Below are positions 31,980 to 40,697 of a stretch of DNA of 64,000 nucleotides, one piece after another. Location: assembly GCA_964596395.1 (NCBI GenBank), contig CAZQSY010000003.1:25678-89677 (forward strand). Direction: 5' to 3'. Numbering within the stretch: position 1 is the first letter of the stretch; the number at the start of each line of letters is the position of its first letter. The stretch is from an uncultured Candidatus Saccharibacteria bacterium. GTDB taxonomy: Bacteria; Patescibacteriota; Minisyncoccia; Phycocordibacterales; UBA9973. A program made the position numbers and the translations under genes. The notes under the pieces are model-generated. The model ran no database searches. It was given only the letters and a program-made list of their open reading frames with translations, and was not told where the DNA came from.

Positions 31980-33911
31980 ATGGCCAGAAAAAACGCACCC
32001 AATAAAACCGCGACCGGAATCATGTATGTCACCTCTAAAGGAACCGGCTACGTGAAAATCCCCGAACAAAAAGAAGACGTGGAAGTCGATTCCGCACGCT
32101 TAAACACGGCGTTAAACGGCGATACTGTTCTGGTTTCCTTGTATTCCAGGAGCGGCAAACGCCCGGCCGGTGAAGTCCTAAAAATAATTTTGCGCGCCAA
32201 AACCGGCTTCTCGGGCGTACTGCGAAAGGAAAACGGTCTCTACTTTTTAAGGCCGGACGATACAAAGATGTACGCCGATATATTAATCTCCCAAGAAGGC
32301 CTCGCAGGTGCCCGGGCCGGAGAAAAAGTCTACGTCGAGATGACTTCCTGGCGAGACCCTAAACAGAACCCGACGGGGAAAATAATAAAAATCCTGGGCG
32401 TGCCCGGCGACAATGATACCGAAATGAAAGCCATAGCGATGGAAAAAGGATTCGACGACAAACTGCCGAAAGCGGCGCAAAACGAAGCCAAAAAAGCAGA
32501 AAAACTCTCGGGTAGCAGGAGTGACTTGTCGGAAAGGAGGGACTTCCGAAAAATTCTAACCTTTACCATAGACCCTGAAAATGCCAAGGACTTTGACGAC
32601 GCGATATCGATAAAAGAAGCGGGCGCCGGCAAATGGGAGGTAGGGGTGCATATCGCGGACGTCACGCATTACGTGAAAGAAGGAAGCGAGCTGGATAAAG
32701 AGGCGCTCAAAAGAGGCACTTCAGTCTACCTGGTAGACAGAACCATACCAATGCTTCCGGAAATCCTTTCAAACGACGTGTGTTCGCTCGTCCCAAACCA
32801 AGACCGGCTCACCATGAGCGCGGTTTTCGTCCTAGATAAAAACGCGCGCGTGCTCGATGAATGGTACGGCAAAACGGTAATCCGCTCCCAAAAAAGATTT
32901 ACCTATGAAGAAGCAGAAGACGCGATAAAAAACTCTTCTGCGGTCTATCACGGGGAGCTTTCCATTTTGAACGAACTGGCAAAAAAGATGAGGAAGGAGA
33001 GATTCAGGAAAGGCGCCATTTCTCTCGACCAGGAGGAAGTAAAATTTATTCTGGATGAAAAAGGAACGCCGATAAAAATTTCAAAAAAAATGCGCGGGGA
33101 TTCCAGCCGGATGATAGAAGAATTCATGCTCCTGGCAAATCAAAAAGTGGCCGGGAAAATTTCTCTGGCTTCCGGCGAATCGGGCCAGGCGAAAGAAGTG
33201 TTCGTCTACCGGGTGCACGACAAACCAAGTAAAGAAAAAATGAATGAGCTTTGCCTGTTTCTCTCGGGAATGGGATACAAAGTTCCGATGAAAAACGGAA
33301 TCGTCCCGGCGAACGTAATCAACAGTTTACTCGAAGAACTTGCCGGTAAAAACGAAGAAGATGCCGTTCAGCGAGCGGTGGTTCGTTCCATGGCTAAAGC
33401 TGTTTACTCCACCAAAAACATCGGGCACTATGGCCTGGCTTTCAAACATTACGCGCATTTCACTTCGCCAATCCGCAGGTATCCCGACATGATTGCGCAC
33501 CGGCTCCTGTACGATTATCTGCAGGGTAAAAAAACCGGCCGGGAAAAAATTCGCGCCTATCAGGAAATCGCGGAAAGGTGCTCGGAGCGGGAAAAACAGG
33601 CAGGCGAAGCGGAAAGGGCTTCCATAAAATACAAACAGGCGGAATACATGTTCCCGCGTGTGGGGAAAATTTTCGGGGGAATCGTCTCGGGCGTTACAGA
33701 GTGGGGCATCTATGTCGAAGAAAAAGACACGAAGTGCGAAGGCCTGGTGAGAGTGCGGGACATGGCCGACGATTTTTACGCTTTTAACGAGAAAAAATCT
33801 GAAATGGTCGGACAGAAAAAAGGCAAGAAATACCGCCTGGGCACCGAGGTGAAAGTAAAAGTGAAGAACGTTGATTTGGAAAGGAAAAACATCGACTACG
33901 TGCTGATATGA
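31980..33911 (+). CDS. rnr: ribonuclease R / RNase II-family 3'-5' exoribonuclease
   Basis: N-terminal cold-shock-like OB folds. The RNB catalytic region 'LTFTIDPENAKDFDDAISIKEAG...WEVGVHIADVTHYV' and 'HYGLAFKHYAHFTSPIRRYPDMIAHR' is present. A C-terminal S1 domain follows. Confidence 0.85.
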   Translation: MARKNAPNKTATGIMYVTSKGTGYVKIPEQKEDVEVDSARLNTALNGDTVLVSLYSRSGKRPAGEVLKIILRAKTGFSGVLRKENGLYFLRPDDTKMYADILISQEGLAGARAGEKVYVEMTSWRDPKQNPTGKIIKILGVPGDNDTEMKAIAMEKGFDDKLPKAAQNEAKKAEKLSGSRSDLSERRDFRKILTFTIDPENAKDFDDAISIKEAGAGKWEVGVHIADVTHYVKEGSELDKEALKRGTSVYLVDRTIPMLPEILSNDVCSLVPNQDRLTMSAVFVLDKNARVLDEWYGKTVIRSQKRFTYEEAEDAIKNSSAVYHGELSILNELAKKMRKERFRKGAISLDQEEVKFILDEKGTPIKISKKMRGDSSRMIEEFMLLANQKVAGKISLASGESGQAKEVFVYRVHDKPSKEKMNELCLFLSGMGYKVPMKNGIVPANVINSLLEELAGKNEEDAVQRAVVRSMAKAVYSTKNIGHYGLAFKHYAHFTSPIRRYPDMIAHRLLYDYLQGKKTGREKIRAYQEIAERCSEREKQAGEAERASIKYKQAEYMFPRVGKIFGGIVSGVTEWGIYVEEKDTKCEGLVRVRDMADDFYAFNEKKSEMVGQKKGKKYRLGTEVKVKVKNVDLERKNIDYVLI

Positions 33912-35803
33912 GAAAAACAAGAGAAAAATTAAGGACTGCCGGTTGGACGATTTTTTCAGTTGGTCTGGGGGTACTGCTGGCTCATTTGGGTTCCGTCAGC
34001 GCCGGATATCAAAAAATAATTCCGGCAGCGGAAAACGTGGCGTTCGTCTCACCCGACACTAAAATCACAGACAGCGGTGAATCTTCTTCCCAGTATTTCT
34101 ATTTCACCAAAAACCCCAAACAACATCCGAGGGTATCTGCCCCTTCATACCTGGTCGGGGATTTGGATACCGGCGAAGTGATACTTTCAAACGGAAACGA
34201 CAAAACCTTCCCCATAGCGTCGGTAACCAAGCTTATGACCGCGCTAGTTGCTTCAAACTGGGCGGAAGAAAAAGACGCGGCTCTGGTTTCTAAGAAAGCG
34301 CTGGCCACTTACGGACGGAACGGCGGTCTGCGCGCCGGAGAAAAAGTAAAAGTGTCCGACCTACTGTATCCCCTGCTTCTGGAATCGAGCAACGACGCGG
34401 GAGAAGTGCTGGCCGAACATTTCAAGAGAGAGGACTTCGTCAGAGAAATGAATCTAAAAGCCATAGAGCTCGGCATGCTCAAAACCGAGTTTGAAGACCC
34501 GAGCGGCCTCTCCGCCAAAAACCAATCGACAGTTTTGGATTTATTCAAGCTGGCTTCGCACATAAACAAAGAATTGCCTGAACTGCTTCAAGTCACAACC
34601 AAAAGAAGCTATTTCACCGATAAACACAAATGGTTTTCAAACAATCAATTTCTGTCAGAAGAAGGATACTTGGGAGGCAAGAGCGGCTACACCGTCCCGG
34701 CCGGGCAAACGGTCGTTTCACTTTTTTCGGTTCCTTTGTCTGAAGAAGGCGCGCGGAATGTAGCTATAACCCTGCTCCAAAGCAAAGACCGCAAAAAAGA
34801 CGTTGAGAATATCCTGAAGTATTTGAATAAAAACATTTATTACGGCACTGAAGCCGATGCCGACACACTCTGGGTAAAGCGTAAAAGCGATATCGTGAAC
34901 GGCTCTTACGACCAAGATTTCGTCACTCTGGTTTTTGGCGGAGACATAATGCTTGACCGCGGAGTGCGAAATTCAGTAAACAAAAATTTCGGCGGCGACT
35001 ATTCTTCGCTGTTCGAAAACCTTCTTTCCTTAAAGAGAGCCGATATTTCTTTCGCCAACCTCGAAGGCCCGGCATCCGGGGAAGGCACCGACCAACGCAA
35101 CTTGTATTCTTTCAGAATGGACCCTGGGGTGATACCGGCGCTTAAGGGAGGAGGCATATCAATTGTCTCCGCCGCCAACAATCACGTCGGGGATTGGGGC
35201 CGCGACGCCTACACCGATACTTTAAAACGGCTTCAGGAAAATGAAATTCTTTACGCCGGCGGCGGAATGAGCGCGGCAGAAGCGGAACAGCCCGCGGTAA
35301 TTGAAAAATACGGAATGAAAATCGGATTCTTGGGATTTTCCGACGTCGGGCCGAATTGGATGAAGGCAGAGGAAGATAAGGCTGGAATTCTGCTCGCCAG
35401 CAATCCGCGATTCGAAGAAATCATAAAAAGCGCCGCCAGGCAGGTTGACTACCTCGTCGTTTCTTTCCATTTCGGAGAAGAGTACAAAGAAAAACACAAC
35501 GAACGGCAGGAAAATCTGGCGCATCGCGCCGTAGACGCCGGCGCAAAAATCGTGGTCGGCCACCACCCGCACGTGGCGCAAGACGTCGAAGTGTATCGGG
35601 ACGGCTTTATCGCCTACTCGCTCGGCAATTTCATTTTTGACCAGGGATTTTCAGAAAAAACGATGCAGGGCATGCTGCTAGAGGCAAAACTCTGGAAGAA
35701 CGGAGATATGACTGTGCGCAAAAACACCGTGAAGCTCAACAAATTCTTCCAGCCCGAAAGAGTGATAAACGGCAAGGAGGAGAGAATAAAGTTTGAGGAG
35801 TGA
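33908..35803 (+). CDS. fusion protein: N-terminal S11 D-alanyl-D-alanine carboxypeptidase (PBP5-like) plus C-terminal CapA/PGA_cap-like metallophosphoesterase
   Basis: Signal/TM (WTIFSVGLGVLLAHLGSVSAG). SxxK 'IASVTKLMT' and SxN 'LESSNDA' are the S11 motifs. The second half, 'LVFGGDIMLDRGV...ANLEGP...VSAANNHVGDWG...VVSFHFGEEY...VVGHHPHVAQ...GNFIFDQ', matches the CapA-type calcineurin-like phosphoesterase pattern. Confidence 0.65.
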   Translation: MRKTREKLRTAGWTIFSVGLGVLLAHLGSVSAGYQKIIPAAENVAFVSPDTKITDSGESSSQYFYFTKNPKQHPRVSAPSYLVGDLDTGEVILSNGNDKTFPIASVTKLMTALVASNWAEEKDAALVSKKALATYGRNGGLRAGEKVKVSDLLYPLLLESSNDAGEVLAEHFKREDFVREMNLKAIELGMLKTEFEDPSGLSAKNQSTVLDLFKLASHINKELPELLQVTTKRSYFTDKHKWFSNNQFLSEEGYLGGKSGYTVPAGQTVVSLFSVPLSEEGARNVAITLLQSKDRKKDVENILKYLNKNIYYGTEADADTLWVKRKSDIVNGSYDQDFVTLVFGGDIMLDRGVRNSVNKNFGGDYSSLFENLLSLKRADISFANLEGPASGEGTDQRNLYSFRMDPGVIPALKGGGISIVSAANNHVGDWGRDAYTDTLKRLQENEILYAGGGMSAAEAEQPAVIEKYGMKIGFLGFSDVGPNWMKAEEDKAGILLASNPRFEEIIKSAARQVDYLVVSFHFGEEYKEKHNERQENLAHRAVDAGAKIVVGHHPHVAQDVEVYRDGFIAYSLGNFIFDQGFSEKTMQGMLLEAKLWKNGDMTVRKNTVKLNKFFQPERVINGKEERIKFEE

Positions 35804-35807
35804 AAAA

Positions 35808-36596
35808 TTATTTCTTATATTCTTTTAGAACATCAAGGATCTCTTTGAGTATGGGAGCGCTGTTGCTTGCTATGAAAATCCTATTGGTATCGTCGGTCTC
35901 GGGATTGCCGTCAAAATCTGTAATCAACGCCCCGGCTTCCCGGCAAATCAGCTTGCCAGCCGAGAAATCATAAAGCTCCGCATTGTTATTGATAACCGCT
36001 TCGGCTTTTCCTGAAGCAAGCATGCAAAAATCAAAAGTGGGAGACCAATTATGCATTACCCTTTTTGTTTCTTTCGCATATAAATCAATAGTTACCTGTT
36101 GAGCTTTATTGGTAAAATAATTCTTGTAATCGTTGTTACAACAAATAGTAGCCCGCTTTATATCTGTCTCGCCGCTTACTTTCAGTTTCCTGCCATCGCA
36201 ATACGCGCCCTTGCCTTTCTCCGCGCAATAGATGTTGTCAATAACCGGGCTGTAAATTACTCCCGCGATTATTTCTTTCCCGAAAAGCAAGCCGATGGAA
36301 ACGGAGAAATTCGGAATCCCAAGCACAAAATTGTTTGTTCCGTCAAGCGGGTCAATGACAAAGGTATACTCTGAACCGTTGTCCGCGCTTCCCTCTTCTT
36401 CCGAATAGATGCTGTAATCGGGAAAATCTTTTTTAAGGGCGTAAATTATCGCCTCTTCCGATTCCAGGTCGGCCTTCGTTTTAAAATCGGCCGCATTCGT
36501 TTTCTGCGAAACCTCCAAGCTTTGGCCGAAATATTTGTTCAGTATCAGGCCTCCCACTTTCGCGGCTTCAATCATATTTTTCAAGGTTTTGCCCAT
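35808..36596 (-). CDS. inositol monophosphatase family protein (SuhB/IMPase-like)
   Basis: 'FVIDPLDGTNNFVLGIP' is the metal-binding motif of the IMPase/FBPase family. 'WSPTFDFCMLASGKAEAVI' is the second conserved stretch. Confidence 0.75.
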   Translation of the reverse strand: MGKTLKNMIEAAKVGGLILNKYFGQSLEVSQKTNAADFKTKADLESEEAIIYALKKDFPDYSIYSEEEGSADNGSEYTFVIDPLDGTNNFVLGIPNFSVSIGLLFGKEIIAGVIYSPVIDNIYCAEKGKGAYCDGRKLKVSGETDIKRATICCNNDYKNYFTNKAQQVTIDLYAKETKRVMHNWSPTFDFCMLASGKAEAVINNNAELYDFSAGKLICREAGALITDFDGNPETDDTNRIFIASNSAPILKEILDVLKEYKK

Positions 36597-36619: not shown

Positions 36620-38764
36620 CTATTTCGCTATCGCTTCGGCTTCTTCGAGCTTTACTGAAAGAATTTTAGAGGCGCCGTCGGCTCCGATAGTAACGCCGTA
36701 TAAAATCCCGGCGCGAGACATCGTCTCGCGGTTGTGCGTCACCACCACCAGCTGGGAGTTTTTCGAAAGCAGTTCTAGCATGTCGCCGTATTTGCGCGAG
36801 TTGGCTTCGTCAAGCGCCGCATCTGTCTCATCAAGCACCAAGAAAGGCGGAGGGTTCACGTACGACATGGCAAAAAGTACGGCAATCGAAGTAAGCGACC
36901 TCTCCCCGCCCGAAAGGGCATCAAGCTCCCGCACCTTTTTGTGCGGCAGCGACACTTCTATTGCGAGCCCTTCTTCCGTTTCTTCCTCCTCTTCTTCTTC
37001 AAGCGCCTCCGTTTCCTCTTCGCTTTTTACCTTCCTTCTTTCCTGCGCCACCACCGACAGCAAAGCAGTCCCGCCCCCGAACATCAGCGCGAAAAAGTTC
37101 TGAAATTCCTTGTTGATTCTTTCAATCCCTTTCCTGAATTCAACGTCGATTTTTTCCTTCAACTCGGCAATCAATGAATTGATGGATTCTACGCTCTTTT
37201 CCAGGTCCAAGAGCTCTTTCGCCAAAAACTCGTCCCTTTCTGAAACCTCTTTAAATTCTTTGGCAACTTCTTCCCCTCCCCCGGCGCCCATGTCTTCAAG
37301 CCGAATTTTTATGCGCTCGATTTTTTTCCGCGCTTCTTCCTGTAAAACACGGTCAACTTTTTCATCTTCTTCTTCCTCCGAAGAAGGTTCTTTTTTGAAG
37401 CGAAGTATTTCTTCCCCGACCAGCACCACCCCTTCTTTTATTTCGTTTTCCAGAAAAAGCGCTTCTTTGGATAAATTATCCTCGCGCGCCCGCAGGAACT
37501 GGAGGGCAGAATTGAGTTCCTGTTCTTTAACTTTCAAAGAAAACTTCTCTTTTTCCAAAAGGTGCATCGACTCCATCTCTTTGTTTACTTCCCGCTTCAA
37601 GAGTTCCGTCTTTTCCAAAATCCTTTTTTCTTCGGACTTACCGTTTTCCAGCTCGGCCAGTAATTTGTCTCTCGAATTTTTAAGTTCGGCTACTTCGCGC
37701 TCTTCGTTTTGTTTCTTTTCAATCTGCTCCGGTGTGGTTTCTGCCAGGATGCTGCCGCACATGGGGCACTTCCCCGACACCTTCACCCTGTTTTCTTTTG
37801 CTTCCAGCATGCCCTCTATCCTGCCCAATTGCCTGCCTTTCTCGGCGCCTTCCGCCCGCAATCTGATTATTTCCTGTTCCAGCGTTTTAATTTCTCCGAT
37901 TTTCGCGCTGCCCTGCGGTGAAATATTCCCTTCTCTTTCCGCCAGCGAAATTTTAGAGGAAATTTTTTTTATCTCCTCCTCTAATCTGCTTTTTTCCCGG
38001 CTTATCGCCTTCCCTTCTTTTTTCAAATATGAACTTTCCTTCCTGAAATATTCAAAATAGAGCACTTTCAGTTCTTCCTGAATCTCTTTCGCCTTATCCA
38101 GCTTTTCCATCTGCTTCTTTAAAAAATTAAGATGCGGGGCGTTCTCTCGCCGAAGCATCGACACCTCTTTCATATTCTCTTCGGTTTTCAAAAGTTTCCG
38201 CTCCGATTCCCTTATCCGGTAGCGGTAAATTTTTAGGCCTAAAGCGTCCTCCACCATCTCGCGGCGCTCTCTGGGATTCGCGTTCAAAATCCTGTCCGCC
38301 TCGCCCTGGGAAATTATGTGGTGTCCCGACGAGCCGATATTCACCGAAGCAAGCAAACTGTTCACGTCTTTCAAACGCACACCTTCCCCGTTCAAAAGAT
38401 ATTCATTCAGCCCGTCCGAAAATACCTCGCGCCCGATAGAAACGGTCTCGTAATTCAAATTTACTTTCTCGCCCTCCTCGTTTGACAGCTGAAAAACTTT
38501 GTCGGAGTTGTTGAAATATATTGAAACCGCCGCGCGCGAACTTTTCGGCAAATTTTTGGAGCCCTTAAAAATCATGTCCGCGCCACTCCCGCCGCGCATC
38601 GACTTCATTGATTGTTCGCCCAAGACAAAGCGAATCGCTTCTACCACGTTTGATTTGCCCGAGCCGTTCGGGCCGACAATCGCCACAATCGGTTTCCCAA
38701 ACTCCAAAACCGTCTTTCGGGAGAATGATTTAAAACCGTTCAGTTCAAGATGTTTGAGCCGCAT
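36620..38764 (-). CDS. smc: SMC-family ATPase, miniaturised (714 aa) with a CPxC motif at the coiled-coil apex instead of a hinge domain
   Basis: N-terminus 'LELNGFKSFSRKT...IVGPNGSGKSNVVEAIRFVLGEQSMKSMRGGSGADMIF' is the SMC Walker A head. C-terminus 'LSGGERSLTSIAVLFAMSYVNPPPFLVLDETDAALDEANSRKYGDML...VVTHNRETM' is the signature, Walker B and D-loop. The middle is all coiled coil with 'KCPMCGS' near residue 330 and no globular GGxG hinge. It lies immediately downstream of rnc, in the conserved rnc-smc order. Confidence 0.7.
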   Translation of the reverse strand: MRLKHLELNGFKSFSRKTVLEFGKPIVAIVGPNGSGKSNVVEAIRFVLGEQSMKSMRGGSGADMIFKGSKNLPKSSRAAVSIYFNNSDKVFQLSNEEGEKVNLNYETVSIGREVFSDGLNEYLLNGEGVRLKDVNSLLASVNIGSSGHHIISQGEADRILNANPRERREMVEDALGLKIYRYRIRESERKLLKTEENMKEVSMLRRENAPHLNFLKKQMEKLDKAKEIQEELKVLYFEYFRKESSYLKKEGKAISREKSRLEEEIKKISSKISLAEREGNISPQGSAKIGEIKTLEQEIIRLRAEGAEKGRQLGRIEGMLEAKENRVKVSGKCPMCGSILAETTPEQIEKKQNEEREVAELKNSRDKLLAELENGKSEEKRILEKTELLKREVNKEMESMHLLEKEKFSLKVKEQELNSALQFLRAREDNLSKEALFLENEIKEGVVLVGEEILRFKKEPSSEEEEDEKVDRVLQEEARKKIERIKIRLEDMGAGGGEEVAKEFKEVSERDEFLAKELLDLEKSVESINSLIAELKEKIDVEFRKGIERINKEFQNFFALMFGGGTALLSVVAQERRKVKSEEETEALEEEEEEETEEGLAIEVSLPHKKVRELDALSGGERSLTSIAVLFAMSYVNPPPFLVLDETDAALDEANSRKYGDMLELLSKNSQLVVVTHNRETMSRAGILYGVTIGADGASKILSVKLEEAEAIAK

Positions 38765-38767
38765 TTT

Positions 38768-39472
38768 TTATTCAGTCCAGTTCTTCAGCTTTAGCGCCGC
38801 TTCGGCCGCTTTTTGTTCGGCCTCCTGTTTCGATTTCCCCCTCCCTTCGGTCACCAGTTCGGAACCAAAGAAAATTCCGACCGTAAAGTGCTTGTCATGG
38901 TCGGGACCGGTCTCGCGCAAAATTTTATAGGACGGAGTAACGCCGATAATTTCCTGCACCTTCTCCTGCACCAAGCTCTTGGCATCCCGCCAAAGTTTCC
39001 TGGAAACAATTTCTTCCGTTCTGGGAAGCAAAGTCGAAGCGATAAATTTTTTTGCCGTTTCGTATCCCTGGTCTAGATAAACCGCCCCGATATAGGCCTC
39101 GAAAGTATTGGCCAGGATATACTGCCGCGCCTTGCCGTTGTCTTTGGATTCCCCTTTTGAAAGTAAAAGATAATCGTTCATGCCGATTTTCGCGGCAATT
39201 TCTGAAATTATAATGGCGTTCACCAGCGCCGAACGAATAGCAGTGAGCTCCCCTTCGGTATGCGAAGGATACTTCCGGTAAAGAAAATCAGTCACGATAA
39301 GCTCCAAAATCGCGTCGCCAAGAAACTCCAGGCGTTCGTTGTGCGATAACTTGGAAGCCGGATTTTCATTGATATACGAACGGTGTATGAACGCCTGTTT
39401 TAGCAGTCCTTTGTCTTTGAAAATTATTTTTGTTTTTTTCTCAAACTCGGAAAAGTTTTTTGTTTTATCCAT
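38768..39472 (-). CDS. rnc: ribonuclease III
   Basis: '[20 protein letters not shown]' is the signature. A C-terminal dsRBD follows. Confidence 0.9.
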
Positions 39473-40403
39473 TTCGTTTAAAATTACCTTTGGCTAAAAT
39501 CTCAACGGCCCTGCTTATAAGGGGAATTATGTCGCCGTAAATGCGCAACTCGGGAATCTCCGAGAGCTGAAACCATTTGGCGTCATCCAGCCCTCCGGAA
39601 GTTCCTAGAGATAAATCCTTGTACTCGGCCTCGCCCAGAAAATAAGTGACTCTCTTTAAAACTTTGCCGGTTTCCGGATGAGTGGCCACATATTCGTTTT
39701 CGCCGAGTTTTTCCTTGATTACAATATCCAGGCCAATTTCTTCTTTTATTTCCCTAATAGTGCCTTCTTCCACGTTTTCGTTTTCTTCAATGCGTCCCTT
39801 AGAAAGTGTCCAATACCCGAACACGTCGTGCACTAAAGCAATTAAGACACTATCGTTGTGCCGCGCGTAGACCAGCGCTCCACCGAGTTTCTCTTTGCGC
39901 ATTTGAGAAGTATCCGCGACCTCTTCCGTTTTGTTTTTTTTGCTGACCTGCTCTTTGCCGGGCTCGCCGATTTCCTTGTACACGGCACCCAGCACTCCGT
40001 TCACAAATTTGCTGGAATTCTCGCCCCCGAAGGTTTTGGCCAGTTCTATCGCTTCGTTAATGGCCACCTTCGGCGGCACTTCCTTGCGGTCTCCAAAAAG
40101 AAGTTCCGTCAGCCCGATGCGCAGGATATTCCTGTCTACGACAGAAATCTTATCCAGGGGCCATTCCGGGGCGGCTTTCTCTATTATTTCATCTACCACA
40201 GAACGTTTTTTGAGAACCCGTTCGGCTAGAAAAAAAACGAACGAATCGTCTTCGAGCCCGGGTGCGAACTCCCGCATGTTTCTCTTTATCGCTTCTTTAA
40301 CCTTTTCTTCATCGAAAGAGCCGGGATGTCCGGTTTCAGACATAAAATCCCGTTCAAAGAGGGCTTGGAGCACTATTGACCTTGAAAGGTGCCGATTCGC
40401 CAT
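39465..40403 (-). CDS. nusB: NusB-Nudix fusion protein
   Basis: N-terminal half '[14 protein letters not shown]...[28 protein letters not shown]' is a near-verbatim NusB signature. C-terminal half carries the Nudix box '[23 protein letters not shown]' (Gx5Ex7REUxEExGU). Confidence 0.7.
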
Positions 40404-40466
40404 GAGTTAGATTCTAGTGTCTGGGTTATAGCTTCTAGAACCTAGACACCAGCAGCTAGCCGTTAA

Positions 40467-40697
40467 TTACTTCCCTGCTTCTGCTTTCTTCGCTTTTTCC
40501 TTTTTCTGCTTCTTTTCCGCTTTTTTCACCAGGTCAAGAACTTTTTTACCTCGGTAAAAACCGCACGAAGCGCAAACAGTATGGCCTTTCTTTGCCGCCC
40601 CGCAATTGTCGCATTTGGCAAAAACCGCCTGCGCAAGCGCGTGGTGCGAGCGACGGTTTCCGGTATGCGACCTAGTGCTTCTCATTCGTACTACCAT
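40467..40697 (-). CDS. rpmF: 50S ribosomal protein L32 (zinc-ribbon form)
   Basis: 'RSTRSHTGNRRSHHAL' plus 'CDNCGAAKKGHTVCASCGFYRGKKV' (4 Cys), followed by a Lys-rich tail. Confidence 0.65.
   Translation of the reverse strand: MVVRMRSTRSHTGNRRSHHALAQAVFAKCDNCGAAKKGHTVCASCGFYRGKKVLDLVKKAEKKQKKEKAKKAEAGK

What the first reader, a model, noticed from the sequence alone, without database searches (positions are those of the whole stretch)
39465..40403. NusB fused to a Nudix hydrolase
The N-terminal 150 aa carry the NusB signature almost verbatim ([28 protein letters not shown]). After a Lys/Glu linker comes a complete Nudix box ([23 protein letters not shown]). NusB is a transcription antitermination factor. 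A covalently attached Nudix pyrophosphohydrolase, whose possible substrates include (p)ppGpp, NAD-caps or Ap4A, could couple transcription or rRNA antitermination to nucleotide-signal or RNA-cap turnover. I do not know this fusion as a described architecture.
Basis: partly seen in the sequence, partly recalled or inferred. Interest (0 to 1): 0.5.

Follow-up and report, generated by a model that had tools for sequence, protein, structure and literature searches.

The report
NusB with tethered Nudix domain
This is a real gene, conserved in one group of ultra-small (CPR/Patescibacteria) bacteria, in which the transcription factor NusB carries an extra Nudix domain related to enzymes that strip protecting groups from RNA 5' ends. 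The fusion is in public databases labelled only "NusB", I found no paper describing it, and the catalytic residues of the extra domain are often lost in relatives.

Summary
ORF 39465-40403 (-) is an uninterrupted 312-aa protein with three parts:
- A NusB domain (res 1-146), which scores above the NCBIfam equivalog cut-off.
- A disordered Lys-rich linker (147-172).
- A Nudix domain (173-~307) with a complete Nudix box.

It is not a frameshift artefact. All 120 listed homologs, from many separate assemblies, have the same two-domain architecture.

The gene occupies the ancestral nusB slot. The order rpmF-nusB-rnc(-smc) holds in about 80 Patescibacteria genomes. About half, mostly within Paceibacteria lineages, carry the Nudix extension.

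The Nudix domain is closest, by sequence and by fold, to Aquifex aq_158 (PDB 3I7U). That "Ap4A hydrolase" was shown in 2026 to be a broad RNA 5'-end pyrophosphatase and decapping enzyme.

The domain as a whole is under purifying selection, but its catalytic glutamates are not. E218, which corresponds to RppH E53, is replaced in 38% of close homologs. Only 9 of 55 divergent fusion clusters keep a full box, against nearly all standalone relatives.

Best reading: this is the resident NusB with a tethered module that recognises a 5'-end or dinucleoside polyphosphate. The module is probably catalytic in this genome and binding-only in many relatives.

The architecture is undescribed in the literature I could search but visible in databases, so I rate it a new variant of a known kind.

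The parts
39465..40403 (-). Whole nusB::nudix ORF, 312 aa plus stop
   Evidence: ORF list. Both Pfam domains lie in one frame. All 120 listed homologs have the same architecture.
39966..40403 (-). NusB domain, residues 1-146, all-helical (7 helices)
   Evidence: PF01029 E 2.1e-32. TIGR01951 116.6 bits, above the 88.35 cut-off. Best PDB sequence match is T. maritima NusB 1tzt, 1.4e-19. The model matches NusB 1tzw (TM 0.81) and 1eyv (0.79). R4, R8, E100, P110, V113, F133 and G136 are invariant in 32 diverse fusions.
39888..39965 (-). Flexible Lys-rich linker, residues 147-172 ([26 protein letters not shown])
   Evidence: pLDDT < 50 for residues 148-163 and pTM 0.54, so no fixed orientation between the domains. 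Linker length is 13-43 aa across the family, with K+R about 25%.
39483..39887 (-). Nudix-fold domain, residues 173-307, of the Ap4A-hydrolase / aq_158 type
   Evidence: PF00293 E 1.1e-12. Best PDB sequence hit is 3i7u, 1.3e-8. Best Foldseek hit is 3i7u, TM 0.90 (normalised to the target), rmsd 2.1 A. Next come MutT1, Rv2985, NrtR, CT771, Ndx1 and Dcp2.
39729..39797 (-). Nudix box, residues 203-225 (G203, E209, R217, E218, E221, E222, G224), complete in this copy
   Evidence: Translation. By alignment, E222 = aq_158 E51 and Ndx1 E50. E218 = E. coli RppH E53 by position in the motif, which spans residues 38-60. E218 is variable in the family.
38768..39472 (-). rnc (RNase III), next gene downstream. 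Its ATG overlaps the nusB::nudix stop codon by 8 nt.
   Evidence: Pfam Ribonucleas_3_3, Ribonuclease_3 and dsrm. Sequence at the junction is AAATGGATAA. rnc follows nusB in nearly all 80 related loci.
40467..40697 (-). rpmF (ribosomal protein L32), next gene upstream
   Evidence: Pfam Ribosomal_L32p. It lies upstream of nusB in most related loci.
40414..40452 (-). 39-nt RNA hairpin in the rpmF-nusB spacer, with no U tract. Its role is unknown (a processing or attenuation site is possible).
   Evidence: Present in both the MFE and the centroid structure. Its sequence is not conserved in relatives.

Best explanation
This gene is the organism's ordinary, resident NusB. NusB pairs with ribosomal protein S10 to bind boxA RNA and rides on RNA polymerase during rRNA transcription. 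In one large group of Paceibacteria (Patescibacteria/CPR) it has gained a C-terminal Nudix domain on a disordered linker about 25 residues long.

The Nudix domain is of the dinucleoside-polyphosphate hydrolase type, whose best-studied relative is Aquifex aq_158. That enzyme removes triphosphates and non-canonical caps from RNA 5' ends. Tethering to NusB would hold this module beside the nascent transcript near its 5' end.

In this genome all Nudix-box residues are present. The domain is therefore probably a Mg-dependent pyrophosphohydrolase that converts a 5'-ppp or Np4/NAD-type capped leader end (or free Np4N) to a 5'-monophosphate. That would prime the rRNA leader for 5'-end-dependent decay, alongside cleavage by the co-transcribed RNase III.

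Across the family the conserved residues are non-catalytic aromatic and basic ones (W198, K202, Y238, Y254, W277, Y289) plus E222. The full catalytic set is not conserved. The conserved core function is therefore most likely recognition (binding) of the 5'-terminal polyphosphate or nucleotide, with hydrolysis kept in some lineages and lost in many.

**Shown here:** the architecture, its conservation, the synteny, the fold affinity, and the pattern of residue conservation.
**Inferred:** S10/boxA binding, the ligand, catalysis, and the link to rRNA leader processing.
For: **Identity of the NusB part**
- It scores above the equivalog cut-off and has the NusB fold.
- The N-terminal R4 and R8 and the VPxKV...KFxNG motifs are invariant in 32 fusions that are 32-54% identical to this one.
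- The gene lies between rpmF and rnc, exactly like the unfused nusB of 41 other Patescibacteria loci. Those loci have no Nudix gene in the slot.

**A real, selected fusion**
- All 120 listed homologs have both domains.
- There are 56 fusion clusters at 50% identity among the top 150 representatives.
- Mean pairwise identity of the Nudix domain is 0.79, against 0.83 for NusB.

**Ligand class**
- The best sequence hit (1.3e-8) and the best fold hit (TM 0.90, rmsd 2.1 A) are both aq_158/3I7U. Next come Ap4A/Ap6A hydrolases (CT771, Ndx1, Rv2985, C. elegans and human Ap4A hydrolase) and Dcp2.
- aq_158 removes ppp, pp, m7Gp3, Np4, NAD, FAD and sugar caps from RNA. Its E51A mutant is dead (PMC13145063). 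aq_158 E51 aligns with E222, which is invariant in close homologs.

**Tether and operon**
- The linker is disordered and no fixed domain packing is predicted.
- The stop codon overlaps the rnc start codon.

**Binding rather than only catalysis**
- A full Nudix box is present in 66 of 120 close fusions and 9 of 55 divergent fusion clusters, against 43 of 64 relatives without NusB. Nearly all genuine standalone relatives have it.
- E218 ranks 112th of 133 Nudix positions for conservation. It changes between E and non-E at least about 14 times on a rough tree.
- The equivalent RppH E53A mutant is inactive (PMC6061791).
Against: - There is no experimental or direct computational evidence for any ligand, for catalysis, or for contact with RNA.
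- The Nudix domain is acidic (pI 5.0, net charge about -4). That does not suggest extensive RNA backbone binding.
- Identity to aq_158 is only 27%. Nudix substrate specificity is notoriously hard to predict from homology.
- The window contains no rRNA operon or boxA. The distance from the 5' end to boxA in this organism is therefore unknown.
- Frequent loss of catalytic residues could equally mean that the domain has a role unrelated to nucleotides.
- A rough NJ tree does not show a clean single origin of the fusion.
Confidence: 0.4

Rival explanations
1. The Nudix domain is a small-molecule sensor, following the same logic as NrtR. It binds a free nucleotide signal (Ap4A, ADP-ribose or a similar metabolite). 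Through that binding it modulates assembly of the NusB-S10-boxA complex, coupling rRNA antitermination to metabolic state. Hydrolysis, where retained, only resets the signal.
For: - The NrtR Nudix domain (3gz8, ADP-ribose complex) is the fourth-best fold match.
- Non-enzymatic Nudix domains in transcription regulation are an established class (PMC5389931).
- Catalytic Glu residues are degenerate while the rest of the domain is conserved.
- Related Nudix domains also occur fused to Sigma70_r4 + DnaA_C helix-turn-helix modules and, together with NusB, to Rho_N.
Against: - The disordered linker and the lack of predicted interdomain packing give no obvious route for allostery onto NusB.
- The best matches are hydrolases, not NrtR.
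- E222, the key catalytic/metal-binding Glu of aq_158 and Ndx1, stays nearly invariant. A pure sensor would not need it.
Confidence: 0.2
2. The Nudix domain is a free-nucleotide housekeeping hydrolase, for example an Ap4A/Np4N or oxidised-NTP 'sanitiser'. It became fused to NusB by gene-order accident in a streamlined genome. The two halves work independently, and the fusion only ensures co-expression.
For: - The Nudix box is complete in this copy.
- The closest relatives were first characterised as Ap4A-Ap6A hydrolases.
- The flexible linker allows the two domains to act independently.
- CPR genomes are compact and their genes often overlap.
Against: - A housekeeping enzyme should keep its catalytic residues. 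Standalone relatives do, but fused ones lose them repeatedly while the domain stays conserved.
- The fusion has persisted across lineages that are only 32-54% identical.
- No unfused copy of this Nudix sits in the slot in NusB-only relatives.
Confidence: 0.15
3. The Nudix fold has been re-purposed as a protein-protein interaction or dimerisation module. It might contact RNA polymerase, S10, NusA/NusG or RNase III. It might also replace a Nus-complex component missing from CPR genomes. In this reading it has no nucleotide ligand.
For: - The Nudix box is degenerate in most divergent lineages. In 25 of 55 fusion clusters, two or fewer of the four Glu residues remain.
- The conserved surface aromatic residues could form an interface.
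- Non-enzymatic, protein-binding Nudix domains are known (PMC5389931).
Against: - The residues that stay conserved (the W198-x-x-S/P-K202-G203 motif, E222, Y238, Y254, Y289) are shared with aq_158 and Ndx1 in the alignments. From my recollection of Ap4A-hydrolase structures, not tested here, they lie in or near the nucleotide pocket.
- More than half of the close homologs retain a perfect box.
Confidence: 0.15
4. Artefact: two adjacent genes (nusB and a Nudix gene) were merged by a frameshift or a missed stop codon in this assembly.
For: None found.
Against: - The same single-ORF architecture appears in all 120 listed homologs from independent assemblies and sources.
- It appears in 37 of 78 species-representative genome loci.
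- The linker is conserved in sequence among close homologs.
Confidence: 0.01

Closest known systems
Canonical bacterial NusB (TIGR01951 / PF01029; e.g. T. maritima 1TZT, Aquifex 3R2C, E. coli 3D3B)
   Same: - The N-terminal 146 residues score above the equivalog cut-off.
- It has the all-helical fold, the Arg-rich N-terminus, and the [15 protein letters not shown]...KFVNGVL core.
- It occupies the same genomic slot as the unfused nusB of sister lineages.
   Different: - It carries a C-terminal extension of about 165 residues (linker plus Nudix domain). The solved NusB proteins matched here are 139-156 aa and lack it.
- Position 139 is Gly. From memory, not checked here, E. coli has Asp118 at this position (the nusB101 site).
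Aquifex aeolicus aq_158, 'Ap4A hydrolase' / 'Omnivore RNA pyrophosphatase' (PDB 3I7U/3I7V; PMC13145063)
   Same: - It is the best sequence and fold match to the Nudix domain (27% identity, TM 0.90).
- Shared features are the W-x-F/L-P/S-K-G lead-in to the box, the full Nudix box, and conserved Tyr residues after the box.
   Different: - aq_158 is a free-standing 134-aa enzyme.
- Here the domain is tethered to NusB, and its orthologs frequently lack the 'RE' glutamate and other box residues.
- No activity has been measured for any member of the fused family.
RppH (E. coli NudH / NCBIfam PRK00714) and eukaryotic Dcp2
   Same: [quoted passage not shown]
- Dcp2 Nudix domains are among the sequence and fold hits (E about 6.5e-6).
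   Different: - This is not a member of the RppH family. RppH models give 25.6 bits against a cut-off of 118, covering only the box region.
- No Dcp2 regulatory domain is present.
NrtR-type regulators and other non-catalytic Nudix modules (TRPM2 NUDT9-H, DBC1)
   Same: - A Nudix fold is fused to a nucleic-acid or transcription-related module.
- The Nudix box is degenerate in many family members while the fold is conserved.
- The NrtR Nudix domain is a top-5 fold hit.
   Different: - The partner domain is NusB (RNA- and S10-binding), not a winged-helix DNA binder.
- This particular copy keeps an intact box.
RsmB/Sun: NusB-like N-terminal domain fused to a 16S rRNA m5C methyltransferase
   Same: It is a precedent for a NusB-fold domain joined covalently to an RNA-modifying catalytic domain. 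There are weak partial hits to RsmB N-termini.
   Different: - In RsmB the NusB-like domain is a diverged paralog. Here the N-terminal domain is the orthologous NusB itself.
- The RsmB equivalog cut-offs are far from met (44.8 bits against 319).

Membership tests
NusB (TIGR01951 equivalog / PF01029) | Profile score above the curated cut-off over the full domain length | tested here: met
   TIGR01951 116.6 bits against 88.35, model positions 2-130 of 131. PF01029 112.7 bits against 23.1.
NusB (TIGR01951 equivalog / PF01029) | All-alpha NusB fold | tested here: met
   The AF2 model has seven helices in residues 4-145 with pLDDT mostly 80-95. Foldseek TM (normalised to the target) is 0.81 to 1tzw and 0.79 to 1eyv.
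NusB (TIGR01951 equivalog / PF01029) | Orthologous genomic position; sole nusB of the genome | tested here: inconclusive
   The rpmF-nusB-rnc slot is shared with unfused nusB in 41 related loci. Whole genomes could not be scanned for a second copy.
NusB (TIGR01951 equivalog / PF01029) | Forms a heterodimer with S10 (NusE) and binds boxA RNA; supports antitermination | not testable with these tools
   Only residue conservation is available (R4, R8, F16, E100, F133, G136 and others). There is no rRNA operon or boxA in the window.
Nudix hydrolase superfamily (PF00293) | Nudix box GX5EX7REUXEEXGU | tested here: met
   [23 protein letters not shown] at residues 203-225 matches every specified position. 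The box is not conserved in orthologs: full in 66 of 120 close homologs and 9 of 55 divergent fusion clusters.
Nudix hydrolase superfamily (PF00293) | Alpha/beta/alpha Nudix fold and profile score above the cut-off | tested here: met
   PF00293 48.5 bits against 21.1. The model shows a beta-sheet plus helix 211-223 that carries the box. More than 500 PDB matches have E <= 0.001, and the listed top 50 are almost all Nudix proteins.
Nudix hydrolase superfamily (PF00293) | Metal-dependent pyrophosphohydrolase activity | not testable with these tools
   This needs an enzyme assay. Comparative data show the catalytic Glu residues are dispensable in many orthologs.
Dinucleoside-polyphosphate hydrolase / aq_158-type RNA 5' pyrophosphatase | Closest sequence and structural similarity to characterised members | tested here: met
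   3i7u is the top hit by phmmer (1.3e-8) and by Foldseek (TM 0.90, rmsd 2.1 A). CT771, Ndx1, Rv2985, 1ktg and 4ijx follow. No curated family model exists against which to test membership formally.
Dinucleoside-polyphosphate hydrolase / aq_158-type RNA 5' pyrophosphatase | Hydrolysis of Ap4A-Ap6A, or removal of 5' ppp or caps from RNA | not testable with these tools
   The activity is known only for aq_158 itself (PMC13145063).
RppH (NCBIfam PRK00714) | Equivalog score above the cut-off | tested here: not met
   Best RppH model gives 25.6 bits against a cut-off of 118 and matches only residues 183-227. No RppH chain appears among PDB sequence hits at E <= 0.001.
NrtR (Nudix-related transcriptional regulator) | Nudix effector domain plus a C-terminal winged-helix DNA-binding domain | tested here: not met
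   No winged-helix domain is present; the partner domain is NusB. The only resemblance is the Nudix fold (3gz8).
RsmB/Sun | NusB-like N-terminal domain plus a C-terminal SAM-dependent m5C methyltransferase | tested here: not met
   44.8 bits against a cut-off of 319, matching only the N-terminal region. The C-terminal domain is Nudix, not a methyltransferase.

The most novel reading that the evidence does not exclude
In a large CPR lineage the rRNA antitermination factor NusB carries a dedicated reader or eraser of RNA 5' ends. The Nudix module captures the triphosphate or non-canonical cap of the nascent rRNA leader while NusB-S10 holds boxA on the elongating polymerase. This would physically couple the 5'-end status of the transcript to antitermination and to RNase III / 5'-exonuclease maturation. 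It would be a bacterial, co-transcriptional analogue of eukaryotic cap surveillance. Within the family, catalytic 'eraser' versions would repeatedly have turned into non-catalytic 'reader' versions.
Probability: 0.2. Interest if true: 0.8.

Novelty: new variant of a known kind. Interest (0 to 1): 0.5.

Why it matters
- **A built-in link between two fields.** NusB and its antitermination complex, and RNA 5'-end chemistry (triphosphate removal, Np4A/NAD caps), have been studied separately. A natural covalent fusion of the two, conserved across many CPR species and co-transcribed with RNase III, is 'Rosetta-stone' evidence for a functional link between rRNA antitermination and 5'-end processing.
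- **It is directly testable.** The experiments need only recombinant protein.
- **A natural experiment in one orthologous family.** The family contains versions with an intact box and versions with a degenerate box.
- **Annotation.** Hundreds of database entries named just 'NusB' hide a second domain.
- **If the domain is only a housekeeping Ap4A hydrolase,** the finding is a minor architectural curiosity of streamlined genomes.

Tried and rejected
1. **Frameshift or merged-gene artefact.** Rejected: the same ORF architecture is found in all 120 listed homologs and in 37 of 78 genome loci.
2. **Split-gene test.** In genomes where nusB is unfused, a Nudix gene next to it would have been a classic Rosetta-stone pattern. 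None was found: rnc follows nusB directly in the NusB-only loci.
3. **Context of a standalone relative.** P0148 is a singleton Nudix gene on a mobile-element-like contig (integrase, TraG-like gene, methylase). This was uninformative.
4. **Many 'Nudix-only' representatives are not standalone genes.** They begin inside the linker (MGEP..., MPVE...). They are probably truncated gene calls of fusions, so I did not count them as independent evidence.
5. **Single origin of the fusion.** A rough NJ tree of the NusB domain puts most fused genes together but is not cleanly monophyletic. No claim is made.
6. **SuhB link.** An IMPase-family gene lies three genes downstream. It is not conserved near nusB in relatives and reaches no equivalog cut-off.
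7. **Hairpin in the rpmF-nusB spacer.** It is not significant against shuffles over the 91-nt segment (z = -1.35), and its sequence is not conserved.
8. **rRNA operon or boxA in the window.** Rfam found only two tRNAs.
9. **AFDB fold search** for the spread of the architecture in UniProt: the library was unavailable.
10. **Literature.** NusB+Nudix, NusB+'Candidate Phyla Radiation', Nudix+Patescibacteria, and the 2017 Nudix-clan survey were searched. None mentions this fusion.
11. **CxxC 'zinc hook' in the neighbouring short SMC.** It is present only in this genome (0 of 34 relatives), so I dismissed it as chance.
Full report
**1.

The minus strand of 39465..40403 is one open reading frame of 312 codons. 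Pfam places NusB (PF01029) at residues 7-143 (E 2.1e-32) and NUDIX (PF00293) at residues 186-286 (E 1.1e-12). The NCBIfam equivalog model for NusB (TIGR01951) scores 116.6 bits against a curated cut-off of 88.35.

The Nudix box [23 protein letters not shown] lies at residues 203-225 (39729..39797). It satisfies every specified position of GX5EX7REUXEEXGU. Between the domains is [26 protein letters not shown].

An AlphaFold2 model built on 116 homologs has mean pLDDT 81.5. It shows a seven-helix N-terminal domain and an alpha/beta C-terminal domain. Residues 148-163 are disordered and pTM is 0.54, so the two domains are folded independently on a flexible tether.

**2. It is not an assembly artefact, and it is not rare**

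The 120 best hits in a 5.8-billion-protein collection are 297-325 aa long and 71-100% identical. They come from NCBI, JGI, ENA and Logan assemblies. Every one carries both Pfam domains. Where a source gives a name, it is only 'transcription antitermination factor NusB' or 'N utilization substance protein B'. Named organisms are Candidatus Nomurabacteria, Paceibacterota or Patescibacteria.

One close homolog is in NCBI nr and UniRef (PIZ85253.1 / UniRef100_A0A2J0MI58).

An exhaustive HMMER search with the Nudix domain alone, against 1.84 billion cluster representatives at 50% identity, gave 167 clusters at E <= 1e-10. Among the best 150, 34 are full-length NusB+Nudix fusions and 22 are partial ones.

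**3. Genomic setting**

The local order on the minus strand is:
- rpmF (L32)
- nusB::nudix
- rnc (RNase III)
- a short smc
- an inositol-monophosphatase-family gene

. The rnc ATG overlaps the nusB::nudix stop codon by 8 nt.

A scan of one genome per GTDB species returned 80 Patescibacteria loci. A tblastn search with the window's proteins shows the order rpmF-nusB-rnc(-smc) in nearly all of them.

- In 37 of the 78 loci that could be typed (including the window), nusB carries the Nudix extension. Named organisms include Kaiser-, Zambryski-, Niyogi-, Ryan- and Nomurabacteria and 'Paceibacterota'.
- In the other 41, nusB is 140-180 aa and rnc follows directly, with no Nudix gene in between. Named organisms include Azam-, Yanofsky-, Staskawicz-, Wildermuth-, Harrison-, Nealson- and Doudnabacteria.

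The Nudix domain was therefore added to the 3' end of the resident nusB. This is indirect evidence that the fused gene is the organism's NusB and not a paralog. I could not scan whole genomes for a second copy. A rough NJ tree groups most fused genes together but is not cleanly monophyletic.

**4. What kind of Nudix domain it is**

By sequence, the best solved relative is Aquifex aeolicus aq_158 (3I7U, E 1.3e-8). Next come a MutT/NUDIX family protein (3ID9), Thermus Ndx1 (an Ap6A hydrolase), Chlamydia CT771 and the Dcp2 Nudix domains.

By fold, 3I7U is again first (TM 0.90 normalised to the target, rmsd 2.1 A). It is followed by mycobacterial MutT1 and Rv2985 (a diadenosine polyphosphatase), the NrtR Nudix domain, CT771, Ndx1, C. 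elegans and human Ap4A hydrolases, and Dcp2.

No curated NCBIfam Nudix equivalog is reached. RppH models give 25.6 bits against a cut-off of 118. The domain is therefore not a member of the RppH family.

A 2026 paper shows that aq_158, previously known as an Ap4A-Ap6A hydrolase, removes many groups from RNA 5' ends: triphosphate, diphosphate, m7G, Np4, NAD, FAD and sugar caps. Its E51A mutant is inactive (PMC13145063). In the pairwise alignment, aq_158 E51 and Ndx1 E50 correspond to E222 here, and aq_158 E47 corresponds to E218.

**5. Catalytic residues are not what the family conserves**

In the 120 close homologs, these positions are invariant: G203, E222, W198, K202, Y238, H242, K247, Y254, G270-D273, W277, Y289 and D291.

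E218, the Glu of 'RE', behaves differently. It is E in 74 homologs, K in 38, R in 4, A in 3 and N in 1. R217 is R in 85 and K in 32.

E218 sits at the position of E. coli RppH E53 (the RppH motif spans residues 38-60). The E53A mutant is the standard catalytically dead RppH (PMC6061791).

| Set | Full box (G, E209, R217, E218, E221, E222) |
|---|---|
| Close fusions | 66 of 120 |
| Divergent fusion clusters | 9 of 55 |
| Representatives without NusB | 43 of 64 |

In 25 of the 55 divergent fusion clusters, two or fewer of the four Glu residues remain. Essentially all genuine standalone relatives keep the full box.

The domain itself is not decaying. Mean pairwise identity in the close set is 0.79 for Nudix against 0.83 for NusB. 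Within the Nudix domain, E218 ranks 112th of 133 positions for conservation. On a rough tree of 116 close homologs, position 218 switches between E and non-E at least about 14 times. E222, W198, K202 and Y238 never change.

In 32 full-length fusions that are only 32-54% identical to this one, the invariant or >=90% conserved Nudix positions are W198, Y289, G175, D193, F195, T199, K202, Y238, Y254 and W277. No box glutamate reaches 90%.

Several of these residues are shared with aq_158 and Ndx1 in the alignments: the W-x-x-P/S-K-G lead-in and the Tyr residues after the box. From my own recollection of Ap4A-hydrolase structures, aromatic pairs at such positions stack the adenine base. I did not test this here.

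**6. Interpretation**

*Shown*
- A genuine fusion under selection, sitting in the orthologous nusB slot.
- A flexible tether between the domains.
- A Nudix domain of the dinucleoside-polyphosphate / RNA-5'-pyrophosphatase type.
- An intact box in this copy.
- Repeated loss of catalytic residues in orthologs, while the non-catalytic residues shared with aq_158 and Ndx1 are retained.

*Inferred*
- The NusB half binds S10 and boxA and travels with RNA polymerase.
- The tethered Nudix half therefore sits next to the nascent transcript.
- Its conserved job is most likely recognition of a 5'-terminal polyphosphate or cap, or of a related free dinucleotide.
- Hydrolysis is retained in lineages like this one and lost in many others.
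- In this genome the likely reaction is conversion of a ppp- or Np4/NAD-type leader end to a monophosphate. This would work together with the translationally coupled RNase III in rRNA leader removal.

I put about 0.4 on this mechanism.

*Rivals*
- A free-nucleotide sensor with NrtR-like logic (0.2).
- An independent housekeeping Np4N hydrolase that merely shares an ORF (0.15).
- A protein-interaction module with no nucleotide ligand (0.15).
- Artefact (0.01).

*Points against my preferred reading*
- The Nudix domain is acidic (pI 5.0).
- Identity to aq_158 is only 27%.
- Nudix specificity is poorly predicted by homology.
- There is no rRNA leader in the window to check the geometry.

**7. Comparison with known systems, and novelty**

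The N-terminal half passes the membership tests for NusB that could be run: profile cut-off, fold and synteny.

The C-terminal half is a member of the Nudix superfamily and is closest to the aq_158/Ap4A-hydrolase group. It is not RppH. It is not NrtR, because there is no winged-helix domain. The protein is not RsmB, although RsmB is a precedent for a NusB-fold domain joined to an rRNA-modifying enzyme.

Full-text searches found nothing on this architecture: NusB+Nudix (36 papers, none about a fusion), NusB+'Candidate Phyla Radiation', Nudix+Patescibacteria, and the 2017 survey of the Nudix clan.

It is therefore an undescribed but database-visible variant of two well-known families: a new variant of a known kind. 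Interest is moderate (0.5). A transcription or RNA-decay specialist would find the covalent link, and the mix of catalytic and non-catalytic versions, worth an experiment. No new fold, chemistry or system type is demonstrated.

Noticed in passing
window 36620-40697 (-); loci L001-L080: The gene order rpmF-nusB-rnc-smc is conserved across about 80 Patescibacteria species representatives, whether or not nusB is fused. In the window the rnc ATG overlaps the nusB::nudix stop codon by 8 nt. A persistent nusB-rnc operon is itself a hint of coupling between antitermination and RNase III processing of rRNA.
   Followed up: partly
window 36620-38764 (-): The 'SMC' is only 714 aa. Its head domains match TIGR02168 (491.7 bits, below the 567 cut-off), but the hinge and most of the coiled coil appear to be missing. 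Relatives are similarly short (690-850 aa). A Rad50-hook-like GKCPMCG motif near residue 336 occurs only in this genome (0 of 34 relatives), so it is probably chance.
   Followed up: partly
window 35808-36596 (-): An inositol-monophosphatase-family gene (Pfam Inositol_P, 2.6e-53; no NCBIfam equivalog reached) lies just downstream of smc. E. coli SuhB, from the same family, is part of the rRNA antitermination complex together with NusB. The neighbourhood is not conserved in related loci.
   Followed up: partly
window 40414-40452 (-): A 39-nt hairpin (16 base pairs in three stacked segments, no U tract) lies in the 63-nt rpmF-nusB spacer. Fused relatives often have some hairpin or terminator-like stem there, but the sequence is not conserved. 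NusB-only relatives mostly have spacers of 0-20 nt.
   Followed up: partly
window 33908-35803 (+): A single 631-aa ORF combines a D-Ala-D-Ala carboxypeptidase domain (Peptidase_S11, res 71-271) with a PGA_cap capsule-synthesis domain (res 340-579). This is an unusual-looking pairing.
   Followed up: no
proteins P0133, P0144, P0216, P0225: Relatives of this Nudix domain occur in other architectures linked to transcription or nucleic acids:
- NusB+NUDIX+Rho_N tail (P0133 above the Pfam cut-off, P0144 below it).
- Sigma70_r4+Bac_DnaA_C (helix-turn-helix)+NUDIX.
- A 577-aa protein with about 315 extra N-terminal residues before NusB+NUDIX.
   Followed up: partly
locus L081 8001-8453: The closest clearly standalone relative with a canonical box (P0148, 41% identity) is a singleton. 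It is encoded on a mobile-element-like contig next to an integrase, a TraG/TrwB-like coupling protein and a DNA methylase.
   Followed up: no
window 31980-33911 (+): An RNase R/II-type exoribonuclease (RNB, CSD2 and S1 domains) lies a few kb from the nusB-rnc cluster. Together with trmD and rpsP nearby, this makes the region rich in RNA-processing genes.
   Followed up: no
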